Source: a phage
Length of the DNA stretch: 64,000 nucleotides
Reading direction: 5' to 3' (one strand)
Sequence record: PZ445534.1
A program made the translations under genes and the position numbers. Shown one piece after another: positions 57,051-60,526 of this stretch (the first letter of the stretch is position 1; every line of letters starts with the position of its first letter). The notes under the pieces were generated by a model. It was not told where the DNA came from. It was given only the letters and a program-made list of their open reading frames with translations, and did not search any database.

Positions 57051-58466
57051 ATGAGCGAGTTATTTAAACATGCGCACCTTCATGCAGGTCGAACTGAAAA
57101 TGGTGCTGTAAACCATACTTCATCAATGTCTGCTCTGGTAGACTTCTACAAAGCCGCTGGCTCAAGCCGTAGCAATGTAGAAGTCTTACCAGACCTGTTC
57201 TACAAAGCTTTGCGTGAGGATGTTGATGTTGCAGTTCGTATTTTACTGCATATGCGAGATGTACGAGAGGGTATGGGTGAGCGTAAAGCCTTCCGAACTG
57301 TTTTACTTCAAGCAATTGAAGATAAGGTTTTAGAACCTACACAGGTTCTTCGCATTATGGATAAGATTGCAGAACTTGGTCGTTTTGATGACTTCAAAAT
57401 CTTCGTAGGTACTCGTTTTGAGACAGATGCCTTCAAACATTTAGAAGCAGCATTACTAGACCCTGCAACAGCAGGTTTGGCAGCTAAGTGGTTACCACGA
57501 GTCAAACCACGTCATAAGCAGTTTGTAAAACGTTTCTGCAAGTTTGCCAACTTGAGTGAGAAAGAGTACCGCACACTGTTGTCTGCACTATCTGATACAG
57601 TTGAGCAAAAAATCTCTGCTAATGAGTTTGGTAAGATTGACTACAGTAAGATTCCTTCACTTGCTGCTGCACGTTACCAAAAACTGTTTAACCGTAAAGA
57701 TGGAGAGCGTTACAAAGCTTACATCGAGTCCTTATCAAAAGGTGAGACTAAGATTAACGCTGGTGCTGTTTACCCATACGATGTGATTAAATCTGTCAAG
57801 TATGGTAATGCAGATGTTGCTAATGAGCAGTGGAAAGCACTACCAAACTGGATGGCAGAAGGTGAAAACATCTTGTGTATGTCTGATGTATCAAGTTCAA
57901 TGTCTTGGGTGAATTTTGGCTCCATTACTGCTCTGGATATTGGTGTATCACTTGCCTTGTATGTAGCAGAACGCAATACAGGTTGCTTTAAGAATGAGTT
58001 AATGGTTTATTCAACAAACCCTCACTTCATCGAACTGAGTGGTGATTTACGAAACCGTCATCGTCAGGTGATGCGACACGTTGAATATGGCTCAACTAAC
58101 TTACAAGCAGCTTTTGACCGCATTCTTGAAACAGGTAAAAGAAACAACTTGACTCAGAAAGATATGCCAAGTAAGCTTATCATCTTCTCCGATATGGAGT
58201 TCAATCAGGTTGATGGAGCTAACGGTCGTACAAACTTTGAAGCAATTCAGAGTAAGTACAAAAAAGCTGGATATGAGATGCCACAACTGGTATTCTGGTA
58301 CTTAGCAAACCGTAATGGTACTTGCGAAGTATCTGTTAAGGATAACGGTGTAGCAATGTTATCAGGGTTCTCTCCAGCCACTTTAAAAGCTCTGCTTGGT
58401 GGTGAGAAGTTTGACCCAATCAGTGTAATGCTCAAAGCAGTAATGATTGACCGTTATATCTGGTAA
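57051..58466 (+). CDS. von Willebrand factor A domain protein (DUF2828/TROVE-like?)
   Basis: MIDAS-like CMSDVSSSMSW (DxSxS); N-terminal TENGAVNHTSS segment. Confidence 0.45.
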   Translation: MSELFKHAHLHAGRTENGAVNHTSSMSALVDFYKAAGSSRSNVEVLPDLFYKALREDVDVAVRILLHMRDVREGMGERKAFRTVLLQAIEDKVLEPTQVLRIMDKIAELGRFDDFKIFVGTRFETDAFKHLEAALLDPATAGLAAKWLPRVKPRHKQFVKRFCKFANLSEKEYRTLLSALSDTVEQKISANEFGKIDYSKIPSLAAARYQKLFNRKDGERYKAYIESLSKGETKINAGAVYPYDVIKSVKYGNADVANEQWKALPNWMAEGENILCMSDVSSSMSWVNFGSITALDIGVSLALYVAERNTGCFKNELMVYSTNPHFIELSGDLRNRHRQVMRHVEYGSTNLQAAFDRILETGKRNNLTQKDMPSKLIIFSDMEFNQVDGANGRTNFEAIQSKYKKAGYEMPQLVFWYLANRNGTCEVSVKDNGVAMLSGFSPATLKALLGGEKFDPISVMLKAVMIDRYIW

Positions 58467-58484
58467 AAAGTTTTAAAAAGGGTA

Positions 58485-58513
58485 TTGACAATGTGTTTAA
58501 TACCCTTTAATAT
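58485..58513 (+). promoter_or_regulatory. sigma70-like promoter (TTGACA-17-TAATAT) embedded in palindrome AAGGGTATT/AATACCCTT
   Basis: -35 58485-58490, -10 58508-58513. Confidence 0.5.
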
Positions 58514-58575
58514 GTTCTACATAGTAGCGAAATGAGAGCTTTTCTAAGATACTGAAAAATATTTTAAAAAAGTTC

Positions 58576-58605
58576 TTGACAATCACTAAAAAATAATGTT
58601 AAAGT
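58576..58605 (+). promoter_or_regulatory. sigma70-like promoter upstream of tRNA array (TTGACA-18-TAAAGT)
   Basis: -35 58576-58581, -10 58600-58605. Confidence 0.45.
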
Positions 58606-58622
58606 GGTTACATAGAGTTTGA

Positions 58623-58699
58623 AAAGTTTATCTCTGTTTAGCTCAGCTTGGTAGAGCGTTCCGTTTGGGGCGGTAAGGCCGGAGGTTCAAGTCCTCCAA
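58623..58699 (+). tRNA. tRNA-Pro (anticodon TGG)
   Basis: Acceptor CTCTGTT/AACAGAG, D-arm AGCTCAGCTTGGTAGAGC, T-arm GGAGGTTCAAGTCCTCC, encoded CCA; one anticodon-stem mismatch. Confidence 0.7.
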
Positions 58700-58706
58700 C
58701 AGAGAC

Positions 58707-58784
58707 CAAATTAATGTTCCAGTAGACAAAATGGTATAGTCACCACTCTTTCAAAGTGGATATCTGAGGGTTCAAATCCCTTCT
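58707..58784 (+). tRNA. tRNA-Glu (anticodon TTC)
   Basis: Acceptor GTTCCAG/CTGGAAC, anticodon arm CCACT-CTTTCAA-AGTGG, T-loop TTCAAAT, CCA. Confidence 0.7.
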
Positions 58785-58786
58785 GG

Positions 58787-58866
58787 AACGCCAGTTTTGA
58801 CAGAAGACCAATTACAGCAAACTTAATCTACTCATCTGAAAGTTAATCGGACAAAGAAGATATTTG
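58787..58866 (+). repeat. inter-tRNA repeat element copy 1 (ACAGAAGACC-N4-TACAGCAA ... GGTCTGG)
   Basis: Conserved 5' and 3' motifs shared with copies at 58953, 59347, 59437. Confidence 0.6.
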
Positions 58867-58875
58867 GTCTGGTCA

Positions 58876-58951
58876 TTAAGAATTGCGGGTATAGAGAAAG
58901 GGCGTCTCACATGTCTCATTAGCATGGTATCGGCAGGTTCGACTCCTGCAC
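58876..58951 (+). tRNA. tRNA with CAT anticodon (Met/fMet/Ile2), irregular acceptor pairing
   Basis: D-arm GAGA-AAGGGCG-TCTC, anticodon arm CATGT-CTCATTA-GCATG, T-arm GCAGGTTCGACTCCTGC; acceptor 6 of 7 pairs. Confidence 0.5.
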
Positions 58952-58952
58952 C

Positions 58953-59025
58953 CGCCTCCAAATTTACAGAAGACCGTTTACAGCAATATTTATTAAATTT
59001 TTAGCGGAAAAATTGAAAGATACGG
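58953..59025 (+). repeat. inter-tRNA repeat element copy 2
   Basis: ACAGAAGACCGTTTACAGCAA ... ACGGTCTGGT. Confidence 0.6.
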
Positions 59026-59034
59026 TCTGGTAAT

Positions 59035-59108
59035 ACTAAATATGGTTAGGAAGCACATAAGGTATGTGCGGTCGCCTGTTAAGCGAATGGCACAGGGTTC
59101 GAATCCCT
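59035..59108 (+). tRNA. tRNA-Asn (anticodon GTT)
   Basis: Acceptor GGTTAGG/ACTAACC, D-arm GCAC-ATAAGGTAT-GTGC, anticodon loop CTGTTAA, T-arm CAGGGTTCGAATCCCTG; no encoded CCA. Confidence 0.6.
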
Positions 59109-59119
59109 GACTAACCGCA

Positions 59120-59207
59120 AAATTAAATGTGTCGTTATCCCGTAGATGGTAGCGGTGGGGACTGTAAATCCCTTGTCATTGAGACTCGGTAGGTTCGACT
59201 CCTACAC
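59120..59207 (+). tRNA. tRNA-Tyr (anticodon GTA), long variable arm
   Basis: Acceptor GTGTCGT/ACGGCAC, anticodon arm GGGGA-CTGTAAA-TCCCT, T-arm GTAGGTTCGACTCCTAC, CCA. Confidence 0.65.
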
Positions 59208-59212
59208 GGCAC

Positions 59213-59289
59213 ACCAATAAAGGCTATGTAGTTTAACTGGAGAAAATACTCCCCTGTCACGGGAGATGATGTGAGTTCAAGTCTCATCG
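59213..59289 (+). tRNA. tRNA-Asp (anticodon GTC)
   Basis: Acceptor GGCTATG/CGTAGCC, anticodon arm CTCCC-CTGTCAC-GGGAG, T-loop TTCAAGT, CCA. Confidence 0.7.
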
Positions 59290-59346
59290 TAGCCGCCAAT
59301 TTTGAGAGGGCTATTTAGCCCCTCCCTTAAAGAGTTCTTACGAGTA

Positions 59347-59428
59347 TTCTTTAAAGGAGCAGAAGACCAAATACAGCAAGAATGTATGATATTTTCAAGC
59401 CAATTCAATTTTGAAAAATTTAAAACTT
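59347..59428 (+). repeat. inter-tRNA repeat element copy 3
   Basis: CAGAAGACCAAATACAGCAA ... CTTGGTCTGGC. Confidence 0.55.
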
Positions 59429-59436
59429 GGTCTGGC

Positions 59437-59572
59437 TCAACAAATTTACAGAAGACCGTTTACAGCAAAACTTAAACAATCTATTTCTCGGTAAAGAAAA
59501 GGCGAAGGTTCGATTCCTTCACTCGGCAGAGGTCGAGTTGGTGTAATGGTAGCACTTAAGATGATAAACAAC
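59437..59572 (+). repeat. inter-tRNA repeat element copy 4 enclosing tRNA halves in permuted order
   Basis: ACAGAAGACCGTTTACAGCAA ... [anticodon-arm-like + T-arm GAAGGTTCGATTCCTTC + 3' acceptor ACTCGGC] GAG [5' acceptor GTCGAGT + D-arm GTGTAATGGTAGCAC] ... ACGGTCTGGT. Confidence 0.5.
59474..59547 (+). other. tRNA-like segments in 3'-half then 5'-half order (permuted tRNA or recombinant tRNA fragments)
   Basis: 3' acceptor ACTCGGC (59512-59518) is complementary, with one G.U, to GTCGAGT (59523-59529) located 4 nt downstream. Confidence 0.4.
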
Positions 59573-59721
59573 GGTCTGGTAATTATCTTTGCAGTAGCTT
59601 ATGTGGCTAATTATGTCGTCCCATGAGTGCCGATGAATTTCCTTAGCATGATTCTAGATTAGCTTAATAGGAAATGACTCTACAGACCCTTTAGCAAGGT
59701 CTGCGTAGGTTACTGCAAAGA

Positions 59722-59797
59722 TGATTTAATGGAAGTGTAGCAGAATGGTGATGCGGCAGACTTTTAATCTGACAGGCGATGGGTTCGAATCCCTCCA
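59722..59797 (+). tRNA. tRNA-Lys (anticodon TTT)
   Basis: Acceptor GGAAGTG/CACTTCT, anticodon loop CTTTTAA, T-loop TTCGAAT with weak T-stem, CCA; homologous to tRNA at 60957. Confidence 0.55.
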
Positions 59798-59802
59798 CTT
59801 CT

Positions 59803-59879
59803 ACCAAAAATGGTTCAGTCGCAGATAAGGTAATGCAAGGGTTTCATAAGCCCTATGAATGTGGGTTCGATTCCCATCT
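59803..59879 (+). tRNA. tRNA with CAT anticodon (Met/fMet/Ile2)
   Basis: Acceptor GGTTCAG/CTGAACC, anticodon arm AGGGT-TTCATAA-GCCCT, T-loop TTCGATT, CCA. Confidence 0.65.
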
Positions 59880-59881
59880 GA

Positions 59882-59957
59882 ACCTCCAATGCTGTGAAAG
59901 CACATATGGATGTGCATTCGGCTGATAACCGAAAGGCAGAAGGTTCGAATCCTTCTC
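59882..59957 (+). tRNA. tRNA-Ile (anticodon GAT)
   Basis: Acceptor GCTGTGA/TCACAGT, D-arm GCAC-ATATGGAT-GTGC, anticodon arm TTCGG-CTGATAA-CCGAA, T-arm GAAGGTTCGAATCCTTC, CCA. Confidence 0.7.
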
Positions 59958-59972
59958 ACAGTACCAATTTCA

Positions 59973-60001
59973 ATAAAGTTGTTGACATTAAGATGTGACT
60001 A
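59973..60001 (+). promoter_or_regulatory. sigma70-like promoter inside tRNA array (TTGACA-17-TATAGT)
   Basis: -35 59973-59978, -10 59996-60001. Confidence 0.55.
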
Positions 60002-60205
60002 CTTTATAGTAACCTTAGTTTTCGTTGCGTAGCGTCTATTTTGCAAATTTAAAATAAATGCAAACGACAATGTTTTTCTGGCAGTAGCTTGATAGGCTAA
60101 ACACCAGTGAGGTCTTCCAATCCCTCATCAAAGAATTTGGCGTACTCGCCCACGGTATGATTAATAAGGTGGGCATCTTTAAGGGCTTTCTAATAGAGTC
60201 TTTAA

Positions 60206-60287
60206 AGATAATTACGGGGCGTATCTCAGCGGTCTTCTAAACCGCCGTTAACCGAGTAAGTGGAGTATGCGGGTTCGAGTCCTGCCG
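60206..60287 (+). tRNA. atypical tRNA-like gene, possible anticodon TCT (Arg)
   Basis: Acceptor CGGGGCG/CGCCTCG, T-arm GCGGGTTCGAGTCCTGC, CCA; hairpin GCGGT-CTTCTAA-ACCGC; D-arm region not canonical. Confidence 0.4.
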
Positions 60288-60430
60288 CCTCGACCAATTT
60301 AGTTAGCAGATTACTTAGACGACCTAAGCGGGTCTTCCTGTAGGGAGGTGGTCTGTATCTCATGTTTTCCAGAACATGTAAATAATCTGAGAAGGGGCTT
60401 TACAGTGTTGAGATAATACGGTAAGCTTCG

Positions 60431-60513
60431 AATTATAGTATGGGACGATGTTAAGACTCTAAGGCATGAGCAACGGCCTCCAAAACCGTTTCAAAGGGGT
60501 TCAACTCCTCCGT
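60431..60513 (+). tRNA. atypical tRNA-like gene, possible anticodon CCA (Trp)
   Basis: Perfect acceptor ATGGGAC/GTCCCAT, T-loop TTCAACT, CCA; enlarged D region. Confidence 0.4.
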
Positions 60514-60526
60514 CCCATGCCAAAGT

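What the first reader, a model, noticed from the sequence alone, without database searches (positions are those of the whole stretch)
58787..59572. Repeated inter-tRNA elements, one enclosing tRNA halves in permuted order
Four spacers share conserved ends ACAGAAGACC-N4-TACAGCAA and (A/T)(C/T)GGTCTGG(T/C) around variable AT-rich cores. The end motifs are partly complementary (AGACC/GGTCT) and could form processing stems bracketing one or more tRNAs; a local CAGACC...GGTCTG hairpin also occurs at 59672-59695. In copy 4 the core is replaced by a tRNA 3' portion (anticodon-arm-like, T-arm, 3' acceptor ACTCGGC) followed 4 nt later by the matching 5' acceptor GTCGAGT and D-arm. That is either a circularly permuted tRNA gene, unprecedented in phages to my knowledge, or the scar of recombination between tandem tRNA genes mediated by these elements.
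Basis: seen in the sequence. Interest (0 to 1): 0.65.

Follow-up and report, generated by a model that had tools for sequence, protein, structure and literature searches.

The report
Phage Y-like RNAs beside Ro60-like gene
The four repeated spacers in this Felix O1-type phage tRNA cluster are most likely small structured RNAs that partner the Ro60-like RNA-binding protein encoded just upstream. One carries a tRNA look-alike body in 'permuted' order, a known design (Y RNA / YrlA) but here with a recognition motif I could not find described.

Summary
Four inter-tRNA spacers share CAGAAGACC-N3-TACAGCAA and GGTCTGG ends (4 matches against 0.18 expected). The fourth holds a T arm, a 3' acceptor strand, a 3-nt linker, a 5' acceptor strand and a D arm.

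The two ends of each element pair with each other, not across the tRNAs. They form an outer 4-bp helix, an AGA/G internal loop and an inner 7-8-bp helix, followed by single-stranded UACAGCAA. The helices covary between copies and between related phages.

The gene just upstream (57051-58466, Pfam DUF2828 + vWA-like) has a Ro60 fold. The same module, a stem followed by CAGCAA, sits on the gene strand beside DUF2828 genes in unrelated phages of Listeria, Staphylococcus, Aeromonas, Campylobacter, Mycobacterium and Yersinia, and in 75 metagenomic loci (61 signature hits on the gene strand, 0 opposite, 2 in a reversed control). Thirteen members have the same T arm / closed acceptor stem / D arm body, with different acceptor-stem sequences that nevertheless pair.

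I conclude these are Y-RNA-like partners of a divergent Ro60 protein, and that copy 4 is a YrlA-type tRNA mimic. It is neither a decoding permuted tRNA nor a recombination scar. RNA expression and protein binding were not tested.

The parts
57051..58466 (+). Gene for a Ro60-like RNA-binding protein (471 aa; Pfam DUF2828 + DUF7788, the latter vWA-like), the proposed protein partner of the RNAs
   Evidence: Pfam hits. AlphaFold2 model with a 64-sequence alignment, pLDDT 90.6. The top 11 Foldseek PDB hits are all full-length Ro60/TROVE proteins: 9l5y (Thermus phage phiLo Ro60), E 1e-8; 2i91 and 1yvp (Xenopus Ro60), TM up to 0.67. It is 97.5% identical to the protein of phage Bas63, whose gp130 was called Ro60-like and a counter to the Ppl defence system (PMC11482910).
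58485..58605 (+). Two strong sigma-70-type promoters (TTGACA-17-TAATAT and TTGACA-18-TAAAGT) that head the tRNA/RNA array. No terminator-like site on the + strand lies between them and the elements.
58798..58875 (+). Element 1, between tRNA-Glu and tRNA-Met. Outer helix UGAC/GUCA, AGA/G internal loop, inner helix AGACCAA/UUGGUCU, linker UUA, CAGCAA at 58815-58820, 43-nt AU-rich core.
   Evidence: Second-best hit in the whole window (27.1 bits, E 1e-4) for a covariance model built only from phages outside Ounavirinae.
58964..59033 (+). Element 2, between tRNA-Met and tRNA-Asn. Outer helix UUAC/GUAA, AGA/G loop, inner helix AGACCGU/ACGGUCU, CAGCAA at 58981-58986, 35-nt core.
   Evidence: Best hit of the covariance model (29.2 bits, E 2.8e-5). 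The outer helix changes to UUGC/GCAA in loci L005, L020 and L024, a compensatory change.
59357..59438 (+). Element 3. Outer helix GAGC/GCUC, AGA/G loop, inner helix AGACCAA/UUGGUCU, CAGCAA at 59374-59379, 47-nt core with a hairpin.
59446..59582 (+). Element 4, the tRNA-like (YrlA-type) member. Outer helix UUAC/GUAA, AGA/G loop, inner helix AGACCGUU/AACGGUCU, CAGCAA 59463-59468, V hairpin 59484-59499, T arm 59504-59520, closed 7-bp acceptor-like stem 59521-59527/59532-59538 (loop AGAG), UG, D arm 59541-59555.
   Evidence: The minimum-free-energy fold gives exactly these modules. Three compensatory acceptor pairs against Mordin/Michonne. Same module order in 13 elements from other phages. ARAGORN finds no tRNA in native order, and calls a tRNA only after un-permuting and only in intron mode.
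59581..59726 (+). A probably related fifth RNA: about 146 nt with a 24-bp closing stem. It holds the hairpin CAGACC-CUU-UAGCAA-GGUCUG (59683-59703), a core-less version of the same module.
   Evidence: MFE -54.9 kcal/mol, z = -6.6. Two very different internal alleles share the closing stem. Six of 33 consensus pairs have both sides changed with pairing kept, including G-C to A-U in the small hairpin in Mooglevirus. A similar hairpin AAGUC-CCU-UAGCAA-GACUU lies upstream of tRNA-Lys in Yersinia phage P778.

Best explanation
The four spacers, and probably a fifth RNA at 59581-59726, are genes for small non-coding RNAs that work like Y RNAs, as partners of the Ro60-like protein encoded at 57051-58466.

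Proposed mechanism, with each step marked as shown or inferred:
1. Inferred from promoter scans: the array is transcribed from the strong early promoters at 58485 and 58576 together with the tRNAs.
2. Inferred from the tight packing, with 3-10 nt between element ends and tRNA ends: the enzymes that mature the flanking tRNAs release each spacer as an RNA of 70-137 nt.
3. Shown in silico by folding and covariation: the 5' and 3' ends of each RNA pair into an outer 4-bp helix, an AGA/G internal loop and an inner helix AGACC(N2-3)/(N2-3)GGUCU. This presents the single-stranded sequence (Y)UACAGCAA.
4. Inferred from the strict association of this module with DUF2828 genes across unrelated phages, and from core-less copies abutting the gene's own ribosome-binding site in other phages: this module is the protein's binding site.
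5. The variable cores act as effector modules. In copy 4 the core is a tRNA-shaped body (V hairpin, T arm, 7-bp acceptor stem closed by a loop, D arm), as in YrlA.
6. Inferred by analogy with Mycobacterium smegmatis YrlA, whose 7-bp acceptor stem is cut by RNase P and receives CCA (PMC4201824): copy 4 is probably cut between 59531 and 59532. That would give a two-piece tRNA-like RNA with no anticodon.
7. Inferred from the literature on Ro60 proteins: the ribonucleoprotein probably redirects host RNA-decay or tRNA-handling enzymes, or counters a host defence system.
For: 1. The repeat is far beyond chance and clustered: 4 matches against 0.18 expected, all within 1.1 kb downstream of the gene on the same strand.

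2. All four copies fold to the same closing architecture. The outer helices differ between copies yet always pair (TGAC/GTCA, TTAC/GTAA, GAGC/GCTC). The inner-helix extensions covary (CAA/TTG against CGT/ACG).

3. Changes between related phages mostly keep pairing. Copy 2 goes from TTAC/GTAA to TTGC/GCAA in three genomes. A-U to G.U changes occur in copies 1 and 3 of Mooglevirus.

4. The upstream protein has the Ro60 fold. Relatives in mycobacteriophages are annotated 'Ro-like RNA binding protein'.

5. The same module lies on the gene strand next to DUF2828 genes in Listeria WIL-1 (3 copies), Staphylococcus S-CoN_Ph16 (3), Aeromonas 4_4572 (7), Campylobacter F370 (2), Enterococcus VRE9_2 (1), Sinorhizobium phiM12 (2), Vibrio ValKK3 (1), Mycobacterium BigCheese (3) and Yersinia P778 (3).

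6. In 75 IMG/VR loci, a stem of at least 7 bp followed by CAGCAA occurs 106 times on the gene strand, 29 times on the opposite strand and 23 times in reversed sequence. Of the 106, 53 lie within 500 nt of the gene, a zone that is 11.7% of the sequence. Adding the AGR...YCU-G signature gives 61, 0 and 2.

7. A covariance model built only from 35 elements of phages outside Ounavirinae ranks window copies 2 and 1 first in the whole window, at E 2.8e-5 and 1e-4. The next hit has E 1.1.

8. Thirteen members from different phages carry a T arm, a closed 5-8-bp acceptor stem and a D arm in the same order, with different stem sequences. In five independent ones the 3' acceptor strand is followed by N-CCA.

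9. A canonical TROVE-type phage locus (mycobacteriophage McGee, Pfam TROVE + vWA_Ro60) has the same layout: 5' stem strand, motif, YUAY, V, T, acceptor stem, D, 3' stem strand. There the motif is GCCGA-type rather than CAGCAA.

10. The elements hold no plausible ORFs, internal promoters or terminators.
Against: - Nothing here shows that the RNAs accumulate or that the protein binds them.
- Rfam 15 gives no Y-RNA or YrlA match, here or in the comparison loci.
- The motif that defines published bacterial Y RNAs, GNCGAAN0-1G, is absent.
- By sequence the protein is DUF2828, not TROVE. A profile search of PDB sequences reaches TROVE proteins only at E 0.18.
- Only 39 of 75 metagenomic loci have a strict-signature element within the 4-kb flanks.
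- The covariance model missed copies 3 and 4, whose cores are longer than the truncated-core model allows.
- One genome (NBSal004) has an A.C mismatch in the inner helix of copy 4.
- Within Felixounavirus the whole region is 93-99% identical, so most covariation evidence comes from paralogues and distant phages rather than close orthologues.
Confidence: 0.75

Rival explanations
1. Copy 4 is a true circularly permuted tRNA gene. Its transcript would be circularised or ligated and re-cut, as in the red alga Cyanidioschyzon merolae, to give a mature decoding tRNA.
For: The 3' and 5' acceptor strands are in permuted order, pair over 7 bp and covary. After un-permuting in silico, ARAGORN in intron mode calls a tRNA scaffold spanning the whole construct.
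Against: There is no 7-nt anticodon loop. The position of the anticodon arm is taken by the helix and CAGCAA module that copy 4 shares with three non-tRNA-like paralogues and with dozens of elements in other phages. ARAGORN's 'anticodon' falls at arbitrary places and needs a 50-nt 'intron'. No bulge-helix-bulge motif is present, and from general knowledge bacteria lack the splicing endonuclease that recognises it. The array already encodes a broad set of ordinary tRNAs, 25 in all.
Confidence: 0.03
2. The elements are non-functional repeats or scars, left by recombination between tandem tRNA genes or by a small mobile DNA element (MITE-like).
For: The repeats do mediate rearrangement: phages warpig and PMBT20 carry a clean deletion between the left motifs of copies 2 and 4. 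The array also holds homing-endonuclease insertions and tRNA fragments in relatives. N-CCA after the 3' acceptor strand in five tRNA-like members fits an origin from head-to-tail tRNA genes.
Against: Compensatory and G.U-tolerant changes indicate selection at the RNA level. The same module is kept next to DUF2828 genes in phages with no detectable DNA similarity and in different hosts, always on the gene strand (61 gene strand, 0 opposite). The terminal inverted repeats are only about 5 bp, and I saw no target-site duplication on reading the flanks.
Confidence: 0.04
3. The end motifs are processing signals for the tRNA precursor: GGTCTGG upstream and CAGAAGACC downstream of a tRNA group pair to form RNase III-type stems that bracket tRNAs.
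For: AGACC and GGTCT are complementary. tRNA-Met lies between right motif 1 and left motif 2, and tRNA-Asn, -Tyr and -Asp lie between right motif 2 and left motif 3.
Against: The variable bases flanking the motifs and the outer 4-bp helices match only within an element. Right motif 1 (UUGGUCU-G-GUCA) against left motif 2 (UUAC-AGA-AGACCGU) would give mismatches, and right motif 3 (GCUC) does not pair with left motif 4 (UUAC). Right motif 3 and left motif 4 would bracket nothing, only 13 nt. In other phages the module occurs with no tRNA nearby, for example BigCheese, which has 0 tRNAs in its locus, and Staphylococcus.
Confidence: 0.04
4. The stem-CAGCAA module is a real RNA signal, but it is recognised by something other than the Ro60-like protein, for example a host or phage endoribonuclease, or it acts only as a cis-regulatory site.
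For: No binding data exist. In several phages a core-less copy abuts the ribosome-binding site or start codon of the DUF2828 gene (ValKK3 L013 2974; L026 3964; L031 1774; L034 2869; Aeromonas L014 2918). That is a cis-regulatory position.
Against: Autoregulatory sites for RNA-binding proteins normally copy the protein's own target, so these leader copies point to the DUF2828 protein rather than away from it. The association is with this gene specifically, on its strand, across very different gene neighbourhoods.
Confidence: 0.1

Closest known systems
YrlA, the tRNA-like Y RNA of bacteria and some phages (Chen, Sim, Wurtmann, Feke, Wolin, RNA 2014; PMC4201824)
   Same: It is encoded within a few kb of a Ro60-type gene, on the same strand. 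Its 5' and 3' ends form the stem, with a conserved short motif just after the 5' strand. A YUAY element (UUAC in copies 1, 2 and 4) is followed by a V hairpin, a T arm, an acceptor-like stem closed by a loop and a D arm, in the same order as copy 4. There is no anticodon. Shorter companion RNAs without the tRNA body (YrlB) sit next to it, as copies 1-3 do here. The 7-bp acceptor stem matches the M. smegmatis form, which RNase P cuts.
   Different: The published motif GNCGAAN0-1G is absent. Here the conserved single-stranded motif is (U)ACAGCAA after a helix that starts AGR and ends YCU-G. By Pfam the partner protein is DUF2828/DUF7788, not TROVE/vWA_Ro60. There are four or five copies interleaved with real tRNA genes. 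Rfam gives no match.
Yrl1/Yrl2 and phiRo60 of Thermus phage phiLo (NAR 2025, PMC12135203; PDB 9L5Y, 9KOP)
   Same: A phage-encoded protein with the Ro60 fold, which is the best structural match to the protein here, has two small Y-like RNAs encoded next to the gene. Binding and complex formation with host PNPase were shown there.
   Different: Those RNAs carry the CGAA motif and lie upstream of the gene. No tRNA-like body is described there (0 occurrences of 'tRNA-like'). The protein is a TROVE-domain protein by sequence.
Circularly permuted tRNA genes of Cyanidioschyzon merolae, and split tRNAs of Nanoarchaeum (from general knowledge, not checked here)
   Same: The 3' part of the tRNA is encoded upstream of the 5' part, with the acceptor strands joined by a short linker.
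   Different: Those genes reconstitute a complete anticodon arm and are processed through bulge-helix-bulge motifs into decoding tRNAs. Copy 4 has no anticodon loop, and its ends form a protein-binding-type helix shared with non-tRNA paralogues.
Two-piece (permuted) tmRNA (from general knowledge; Rfam RF04321)
   Same: A permuted gene gives a tRNA-like acceptor/T-arm domain after internal cleavage.
   Different: No tag reading frame is present. ARAGORN finds no tmRNA. Rfam tmRNA hits in copy 4 are limited to the T arm (9.6 bits).
Small stable RNAs co-transcribed with phage T4 tRNAs (species 1 and 2, rnaC/rnaD; from general knowledge)
   Same: Non-tRNA stable RNAs sit inside a phage tRNA cluster and would be released by the tRNA-processing machinery.
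   Different: I know of no sequence or structural relation, and no Ro60-type partner is known for them.

Membership tests
Y RNA / YrlA class | Encoded close to (within 4 kb) and on the same strand as a Ro60 orthologue | tested here: met
   The elements lie 330-1120 nt downstream of the gene at 57051-58466, on the same strand. The protein has the Ro60 fold: the top 11 PDB hits are all Ro60/TROVE.
Y RNA / YrlA class | The partner protein belongs to the TROVE family by sequence | tested here: not met
   Pfam gives DUF2828 + DUF7788 only, even at E up to 10. The canonical phage protein (McGee gp233) hits TROVE and vWA_Ro60. A profile search against PDB sequences reaches TROVE only at E 0.18.
Y RNA / YrlA class | The 5' and 3' ends pair into a stem with an internal loop or bulge that carries the protein-binding site | tested here: met
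   All four copies show the same closing structure, with covariation between copies and between related phages. Binding itself was not tested.
Y RNA / YrlA class | Conserved motif GNCGAAN0-1G near the 5' end | tested here: not met
   The motif is absent from all copies. The nearest string is ACAGAAG. The conserved motif is UACAGCAA instead. McGee RNAs do carry GCCGA-type motifs.
Y RNA / YrlA class | tRNA-like domain in the order YUAY, V, T arm, closed acceptor stem, D arm | tested here: met
   Copy 4 has UUAC 59460-59463, V 59484-59499, T 59504-59520, acceptor stem 59521-59538 and D 59541-59555. Thirteen members of the family show the same order.
Y RNA / YrlA class | Physically bound by the Ro60 protein; carries tRNA-type modifications; cut by RNase P | not testable with these tools
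   This needs immunoprecipitation, primer-extension or cleavage assays.
Y RNA / YrlA class | Match to a curated covariance model | tested here: inconclusive
   Rfam 15 gives no Y-RNA-type hit in the window. It also gives none in the BigCheese locus, so I cannot tell whether a suitable model is in the library. The McGee locus, which carries the canonical RNAs, was not scanned against Rfam.
Circularly permuted tRNA gene | 3' half upstream of 5' half, with complementary acceptor strands | tested here: met
   ACTCGGC and GTCGAGT form 7 pairs, one of them G.U.
Circularly permuted tRNA gene | A complete anticodon arm is reconstituted from the transcript ends, with a processing motif at the junction | tested here: not met
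   The ends form the AGACCGUU/AACGGUCU helix plus CAGCAA, with no 7-nt anticodon loop. ARAGORN needs a 50-nt 'intron' and assigns arbitrary anticodons.
Permuted / two-piece tmRNA | tRNA-like domain plus a tag-peptide reading frame | tested here: not met
   ARAGORN tmRNA mode finds nothing. Rfam tmRNA scores are far below threshold.
MITE-like mobile element | Terminal inverted repeats of 10 bp or more and target-site duplications | tested here: not met
   Only AGACC/GGTCT (5 bp) is inverted, and reading the flanks shows no duplication. The elements sit at the same positions in all relatives.

The most novel reading that the evidence does not exclude
DUF2828/vWA proteins, present in 710 phage records in the collection searched, may form with the 'AGR-helix + CAGCAA' RNAs a second ribonucleoprotein system of the Ro60/Y-RNA type that I could not find described. 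It would have its own recognition code and be widespread in phages of Gram-negative, Gram-positive and actinobacterial hosts. Under this reading the protein autoregulates through core-less copies of the module at its own ribosome-binding site. The tRNA-shaped members would be cut by RNase P into two-piece, CCA-ended tRNA mimics. These would engage host tRNA- or RNA-decay enzymes as part of an anti-defence function, consistent with Bas63 gp130 countering the Ppl system.
Probability: 0.4. Interest if true: 0.8.

Novelty: new variant of a known kind. Interest (0 to 1): 0.6.

Why it matters
Two recent papers guessed that phages with this protein must have Y RNAs but could not point to them.
- The PhageMaP preprint on Bas63, a Felixounavirus, suggested that some annotated tRNAs might be Y RNAs (PMC11482910).
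- The Listeria phage CKA15 study suggested that abundant unannotated RNAs might be Y RNAs (PMC12282133).

This analysis gives concrete candidates with coordinates and a simple shared module: a helix starting AGR, 0-4 nt, CAGCAA, a variable core, then the 3' strand ending YCU-G. That module can be searched for in any phage carrying a DUF2828 gene. Such phages include widely used therapeutic and biocontrol types (Felix O1-like and P100-like phages, staphylococcal and Campylobacter myoviruses, KVP40-like vibriophages).

It makes three questions directly testable:
- what the Ro60-like protein binds;
- whether the RNAs are needed for its reported anti-defence effect;
- what a tRNA-shaped but anticodon-less RNA does during infection.

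It also warns annotators that these spacers, often annotated as tiny 'hypothetical proteins', are probably RNA genes.

Tried and rejected
- Rfam scans of the array, of the elements alone at permissive thresholds, and of two comparison loci found only tRNAs and chance-level hits.
- Single-sequence AlphaFold2 of the upstream protein was unusable (pLDDT 44). Sequence-only and profile searches of PDB sequences were not significant. Only the alignment-based model followed by Foldseek was decisive.
- ARAGORN found nothing on copy 4 in native order. On constructs with an artificial anticodon loop it gave inconsistent tRNA calls, which I do not take as evidence of a decoding tRNA. One search used wrong coordinates taken from the finding.
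- I rejected a promoter reading of the left motif. Copy 1 has TTGACA and copies 2 and 4 have TTTACA, but the -10 positions are poor and not conserved, and copy 3 lacks it. Only the site at 58963 scores 9 of 12.
- I rejected small ORFs. Only ORFs of 21-57 codons, mostly with TTG starts and overlapping tRNAs, are present.
- MAFFT alignment of natural short elements gave register shifts in the 3' strand. I therefore built the covariance model from 35 elements whose cores were cut to 16 nt. It is not an alignment of whole natural RNAs, and it cannot span the long cores of copies 3 and 4. A search with filters off scored lower and was not informative.
- I tried to match the very abundant RNAs reported for Listeria phage CKA15 to the three CAGCAA elements of the related phage WIL-1. 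The paper's locus tags (059-061) could not be mapped, and they may refer to larger non-coding stretches further upstream. This is inconclusive, and I do not claim it as expression evidence.
- Literature searches for DUF2828 found nothing relevant, and one broad search was wasted on the word 'trove'. The Annual Review on bacterial Ro60 was not available, and the supplementary phage list of Chen et al. 2014 is not held. I therefore cannot exclude that some DUF2828-type phages were included there.
Full report
**What the window is.** The window comes from a Felix O1-type phage. Bases 58450-60100 match 265 phage records at 80-99% identity, almost all Felixounavirus or other Ounavirinae. The finding lies at the start of an array of 25 tRNA genes. 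The array begins 170 nt after a 471-codon gene at 57051-58466.

**Check of the observation.** The pattern CAGAAGACC-NNN-TACAGCAA occurs four times in 64 kb, at 58801, 58967, 59360 and 59449, against 0.18 expected. Each is followed 35-101 nt later by GGTCTGG on the same strand, at 58866, 59024, 59429 and 59573.

Copy 4 contains a T arm (59504-59520), the strand ACTCGGC (59521-59527), four bases AGAG, the complementary strand GTCGAGT (59532-59538) and a D arm (59541-59555). The last right-hand motif lies just outside the stated end. The 'local hairpin' is at 59683-59703.

**Anatomy.** Folded alone, all four elements give the same closing structure:
- a 4-bp outer helix;
- an internal loop with AGA on the 5' side and G on the 3' side;
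- a 7-8-bp inner helix AGACC(N2-3)/(N2-3)GGUCU;
- then single-stranded (N)UA-CAGCAA and a variable core.

The outer helices differ between copies yet always pair: UGAC/GUCA, UUAC/GUAA, GAGC/GCUC, UUAC/GUAA. The bases extending the inner helix covary (CAA/UUG in copies 1 and 3, CGU/ACG in copies 2 and 4). This register holds only within an element. It fails if a right motif is paired with the next left motif across the tRNAs, which rules out the 'bracketing stem' idea.

Among relatives, copy 2's outer helix changes from UUAC/GUAA to UUGC/GCAA in three genomes. Two A-U pairs become G.U in Mooglevirus. One genome has an A.C mismatch.

The elements contain no credible ORFs, promoters or + strand terminators. 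Strong sigma-70-type promoters sit at 58485 and 58576, upstream of the array.

**Copy 4.** Its minimum-free-energy fold gives a V hairpin, a T arm, a 7-bp acceptor-like stem closed by a 4-nt loop, and a D arm, all enclosed by the shared closing helix. In the Citrobacter phages Mordin and Michonne, about 85% identical over this spacer, the acceptor strands are ACCCTTC and GAAGGGT. Three pairs are changed on both sides, and the 3' strand is followed by G-CCA. This is selection for pairing, not a scar.

ARAGORN sees no tRNA in the native order. After un-permuting it calls a tRNA scaffold only in intron mode, with arbitrary anticodons. There is no anticodon loop.

**The neighbouring gene.** Pfam assigns DUF2828 plus DUF7788, the latter corresponding to the vWA-type region. 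A single-sequence model was poor. With 63 homologues the AlphaFold2 model reaches pLDDT 90.6. Its eleven best PDB matches are all full-length Ro60/TROVE proteins: Thermus phage phiLo Ro60 at E 1e-8, and Xenopus Ro60 with TM up to 0.67.

tblastn finds the protein in 710 phage records. These include mycobacteriophages where it is annotated 'Ro-like RNA binding protein', and phage Bas63 (97.5% identity). A preprint reports that Bas63 gp130, a gene directly upstream of the tRNAs, is Ro60-like in structure and counters the Ppl defence system. It only speculates that some annotated tRNAs might be Y RNAs (PMC11482910).

**The same RNA module elsewhere.** The module was obvious on reading the non-coding DNA beside the gene in distant phages:
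- three copies after the gene in mycobacteriophage BigCheese, the middle one with a T arm, closed acceptor stem and D arm;
- three in the tRNA array of Yersinia phage P778;
- seven before the gene in Aeromonas phage 4_4572;
- two in Campylobacter phage F370;
- three directly before the gene in Listeria phage WIL-1;
- three directly after it in a staphylococcal phage;
- one or two in Enterococcus, Sinorhizobium and Vibrio phages.

The consensus is a helix whose 5' strand starts AGR (or UAGG/UUGG), then 0-4 nt (often UUA, AUA or UAA), CAGCAA, a core of 7-147 nt, and a 3' strand ending YCU followed by G.

In 75 IMG/VR loci encoding proteins about 40% identical, I used a neutral descriptor: a stem of at least 7 bp ending 0-4 nt before CAGCAA. 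It hits 106 times on the gene strand, 29 times on the other strand and 23 times in reversed sequence. Half of the gene-strand hits lie within 500 nt of the gene. With the AGR...YCU-G signature the counts are 61, 0 and 2.

A covariance model built only from 35 such elements of phages outside Ounavirinae, with cores shortened to 16 nt, ranks window copies 2 and 1 first in the whole 64-kb window: 29.2 bits (E 2.8e-5) and 27.1 bits (E 1e-4). The next hit has E 1.1. Copies 3 and 4 are missed because their cores are too long for that model.

In the window itself the descriptor finds only these four signature elements. A relaxed scan adds only the core-less hairpin at 59683-59703.

**tRNA-like members.** Thirteen elements from different phages share the order T arm, closed 5-8-bp acceptor stem, UA, D arm, with different acceptor sequences. 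In five independent ones the 3' acceptor strand is followed by N-CCA. This fits processing to a free CCA end and an origin from head-to-tail tRNA genes.

**Comparison with what is known.** Chen et al. 2014 defined YrlA as follows (PMC4201824):
- it is encoded within 4 kb of the Ro60 gene, on the same strand;
- it has the motif GNCGAAN0-1G near the 5' end, then YUAY;
- it has a V, T, closed acceptor and D body;
- shorter companion RNAs lie next to it;
- in M. smegmatis it has a 7-bp acceptor stem that RNase P cuts, after which CCA is added.

I checked a canonical phage case. Mycobacteriophage McGee gp233 is TROVE + vWA_Ro60 by Pfam. The RNAs upstream of it show the same layout, with GCCGA-type motifs and GGUUAC.

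The window's RNAs match in context, architecture and module order, and in UUAC. They lack the GNCGAA motif, and their protein is not a TROVE member by sequence. I therefore file them as working like Y RNAs and as a variant of that kind, not as members of the published YrlA sequence family.

Thermus phage phiLo provides experimental precedent for a phage Ro60 that binds adjacent Y-like RNAs and host PNPase (PMC12135203).

**Mechanism proposed.**
- Shown: the repeat, the shared fold, the covariation, the Ro60 fold of the neighbouring protein, and the association of module and gene across phages.
- Inferred: co-transcription with the tRNAs; release by tRNA-processing enzymes; binding of the module by the protein; RNase P cleavage of copy 4 between 59531 and 59532; and a role in redirecting host RNA enzymes or countering defence.

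Core-less copies of the module sit against the ribosome-binding site or start codon of the DUF2828 gene in several other phages. That suggests autoregulation and supports direct recognition by the protein. The window's own gene has no such leader copy.

**Rivals.** I rate four alternatives as unlikely, for the reasons given under each: a decoding permuted tRNA, a non-functional scar or mobile repeat, tRNA-bracketing processing stems, and recognition by some other factor. Recombination between the repeats is real but looks like a side effect: warpig and PMBT20 have lost tRNA-Asn, -Tyr, -Asp and copy 3 by a deletion between the identical left motifs of copies 2 and 4.

**Limits.**
- No expression or binding data were available.
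- The Listeria transcriptome paper could not be mapped onto the elements.
- Within Felixounavirus the region is too conserved to give much orthologous covariation.
- My descriptor and signature were derived from the data, although the strand and reversal controls are independent of that.
- I could not see the supplementary phage list of Chen et al. or the 2020 review, so prior description of this motif cannot be fully excluded.

Noticed in passing
window 59581-59726: A very stable RNA of about 146 nt (MFE -54.9 kcal/mol, z -6.6) with a 24-bp closing stem lies directly after copy 4 and before tRNA-Lys. It exists as two very different internal alleles (window/bumzen/NBSal004/Mooglevirus type against Felix O1 type). 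They share the closing stem, with compensatory changes, and a small hairpin whose loop reads UAGCAA or AAGCAA.
   Followed up: partly
L006 (warpig) and L007 (PMBT20), aligned to window 58987-59468: These phages lack tRNA-Asn, -Tyr, -Asp and copy 3. The breakpoint lies in the 28-nt identical left motifs of copies 2 and 4, so the repeats act as recombination substrates and change the tRNA repertoire.
   Followed up: yes
L008 (ESCO49), aligned to window about 58730-58765 and 59217-59555: A third deletion variant has lost most of tRNA-Glu and everything from the end of tRNA-Tyr to the 3' part of copy 4. Only the right end of copy 4 remains.
   Followed up: partly
L001 1172-1242 (Felix O1), also garuso, ESCO49, Mordin and Michonne; absent from the window between 59118 and 59129: A 60-nt insert between tRNA-Asn and tRNA-Tyr contains a T-arm-like piece (GGTGCAAGTCCTTAGCC). 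It looks like a tRNA fragment.
   Followed up: no
L001 2014-2499 and L002 2016-2501, against window 59812-59888: In Felix O1 and garuso an HNH endonuclease gene occupies the place of the second tRNA-Met of the window. Its end overlaps the start of tRNA-Ile.
   Followed up: no
L004 (REP9) 1074-1159: The tRNA-Asp orthologue carries an extra 8 nt in the anticodon region and is annotated as an 86-nt tRNA-Thr(CGT). It may be a disrupted or altered tRNA.
   Followed up: no
window 60215-60293 and 60442-60516: tRNA-like sequences that ARAGORN misses. Rfam tRNA scores 31.7 bits at 60215-60293, just above threshold. A weak tRNA-Sec-type hit of 23 bits lies at 60442-60516. Mordin and Michonne annotate a tRNA-Arg in this part of their arrays.
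   Followed up: no
window 60068-60216 and 60296-60440: Other long spacers in the array are also more structured than shuffles (z -3.6 and -2.7) but lack the CAGCAA module. 60081-60100 resembles 59591-59610, and 60204-60215 is a perfect 12-nt complement of 59579-59590.
   Followed up: partly
L013 2960-3010 (Vibrio phage ValKK3); L026 3964; L031 1774; L034 2869; L014 2918: Core-less or short copies of the stem-CAGCAA module end at, or overlap, the ribosome-binding site or start codon of the DUF2828 gene itself. This suggests translational autoregulation.
   Followed up: partly
L017 (Listeria phage WIL-1) 6308-7519: An RtcB-type 'tRNA splicing ligase' gene lies 1.3 kb downstream of the Ro60-like gene, together with HD-domain and NADAR-domain genes. 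From general knowledge this echoes the bacterial rsr-yrlBA-rtcBA operon. The related phage CKA15 has the Ro60-like protein in purified virions by mass spectrometry (PMC12282133).
   Followed up: no
L017 3145-3417, L012 5448-5739 and other annotated records: Tiny 'hypothetical protein' ORFs are annotated over the RNA elements and structured spacers in several public genomes. They are probably mis-annotations.
   Followed up: no
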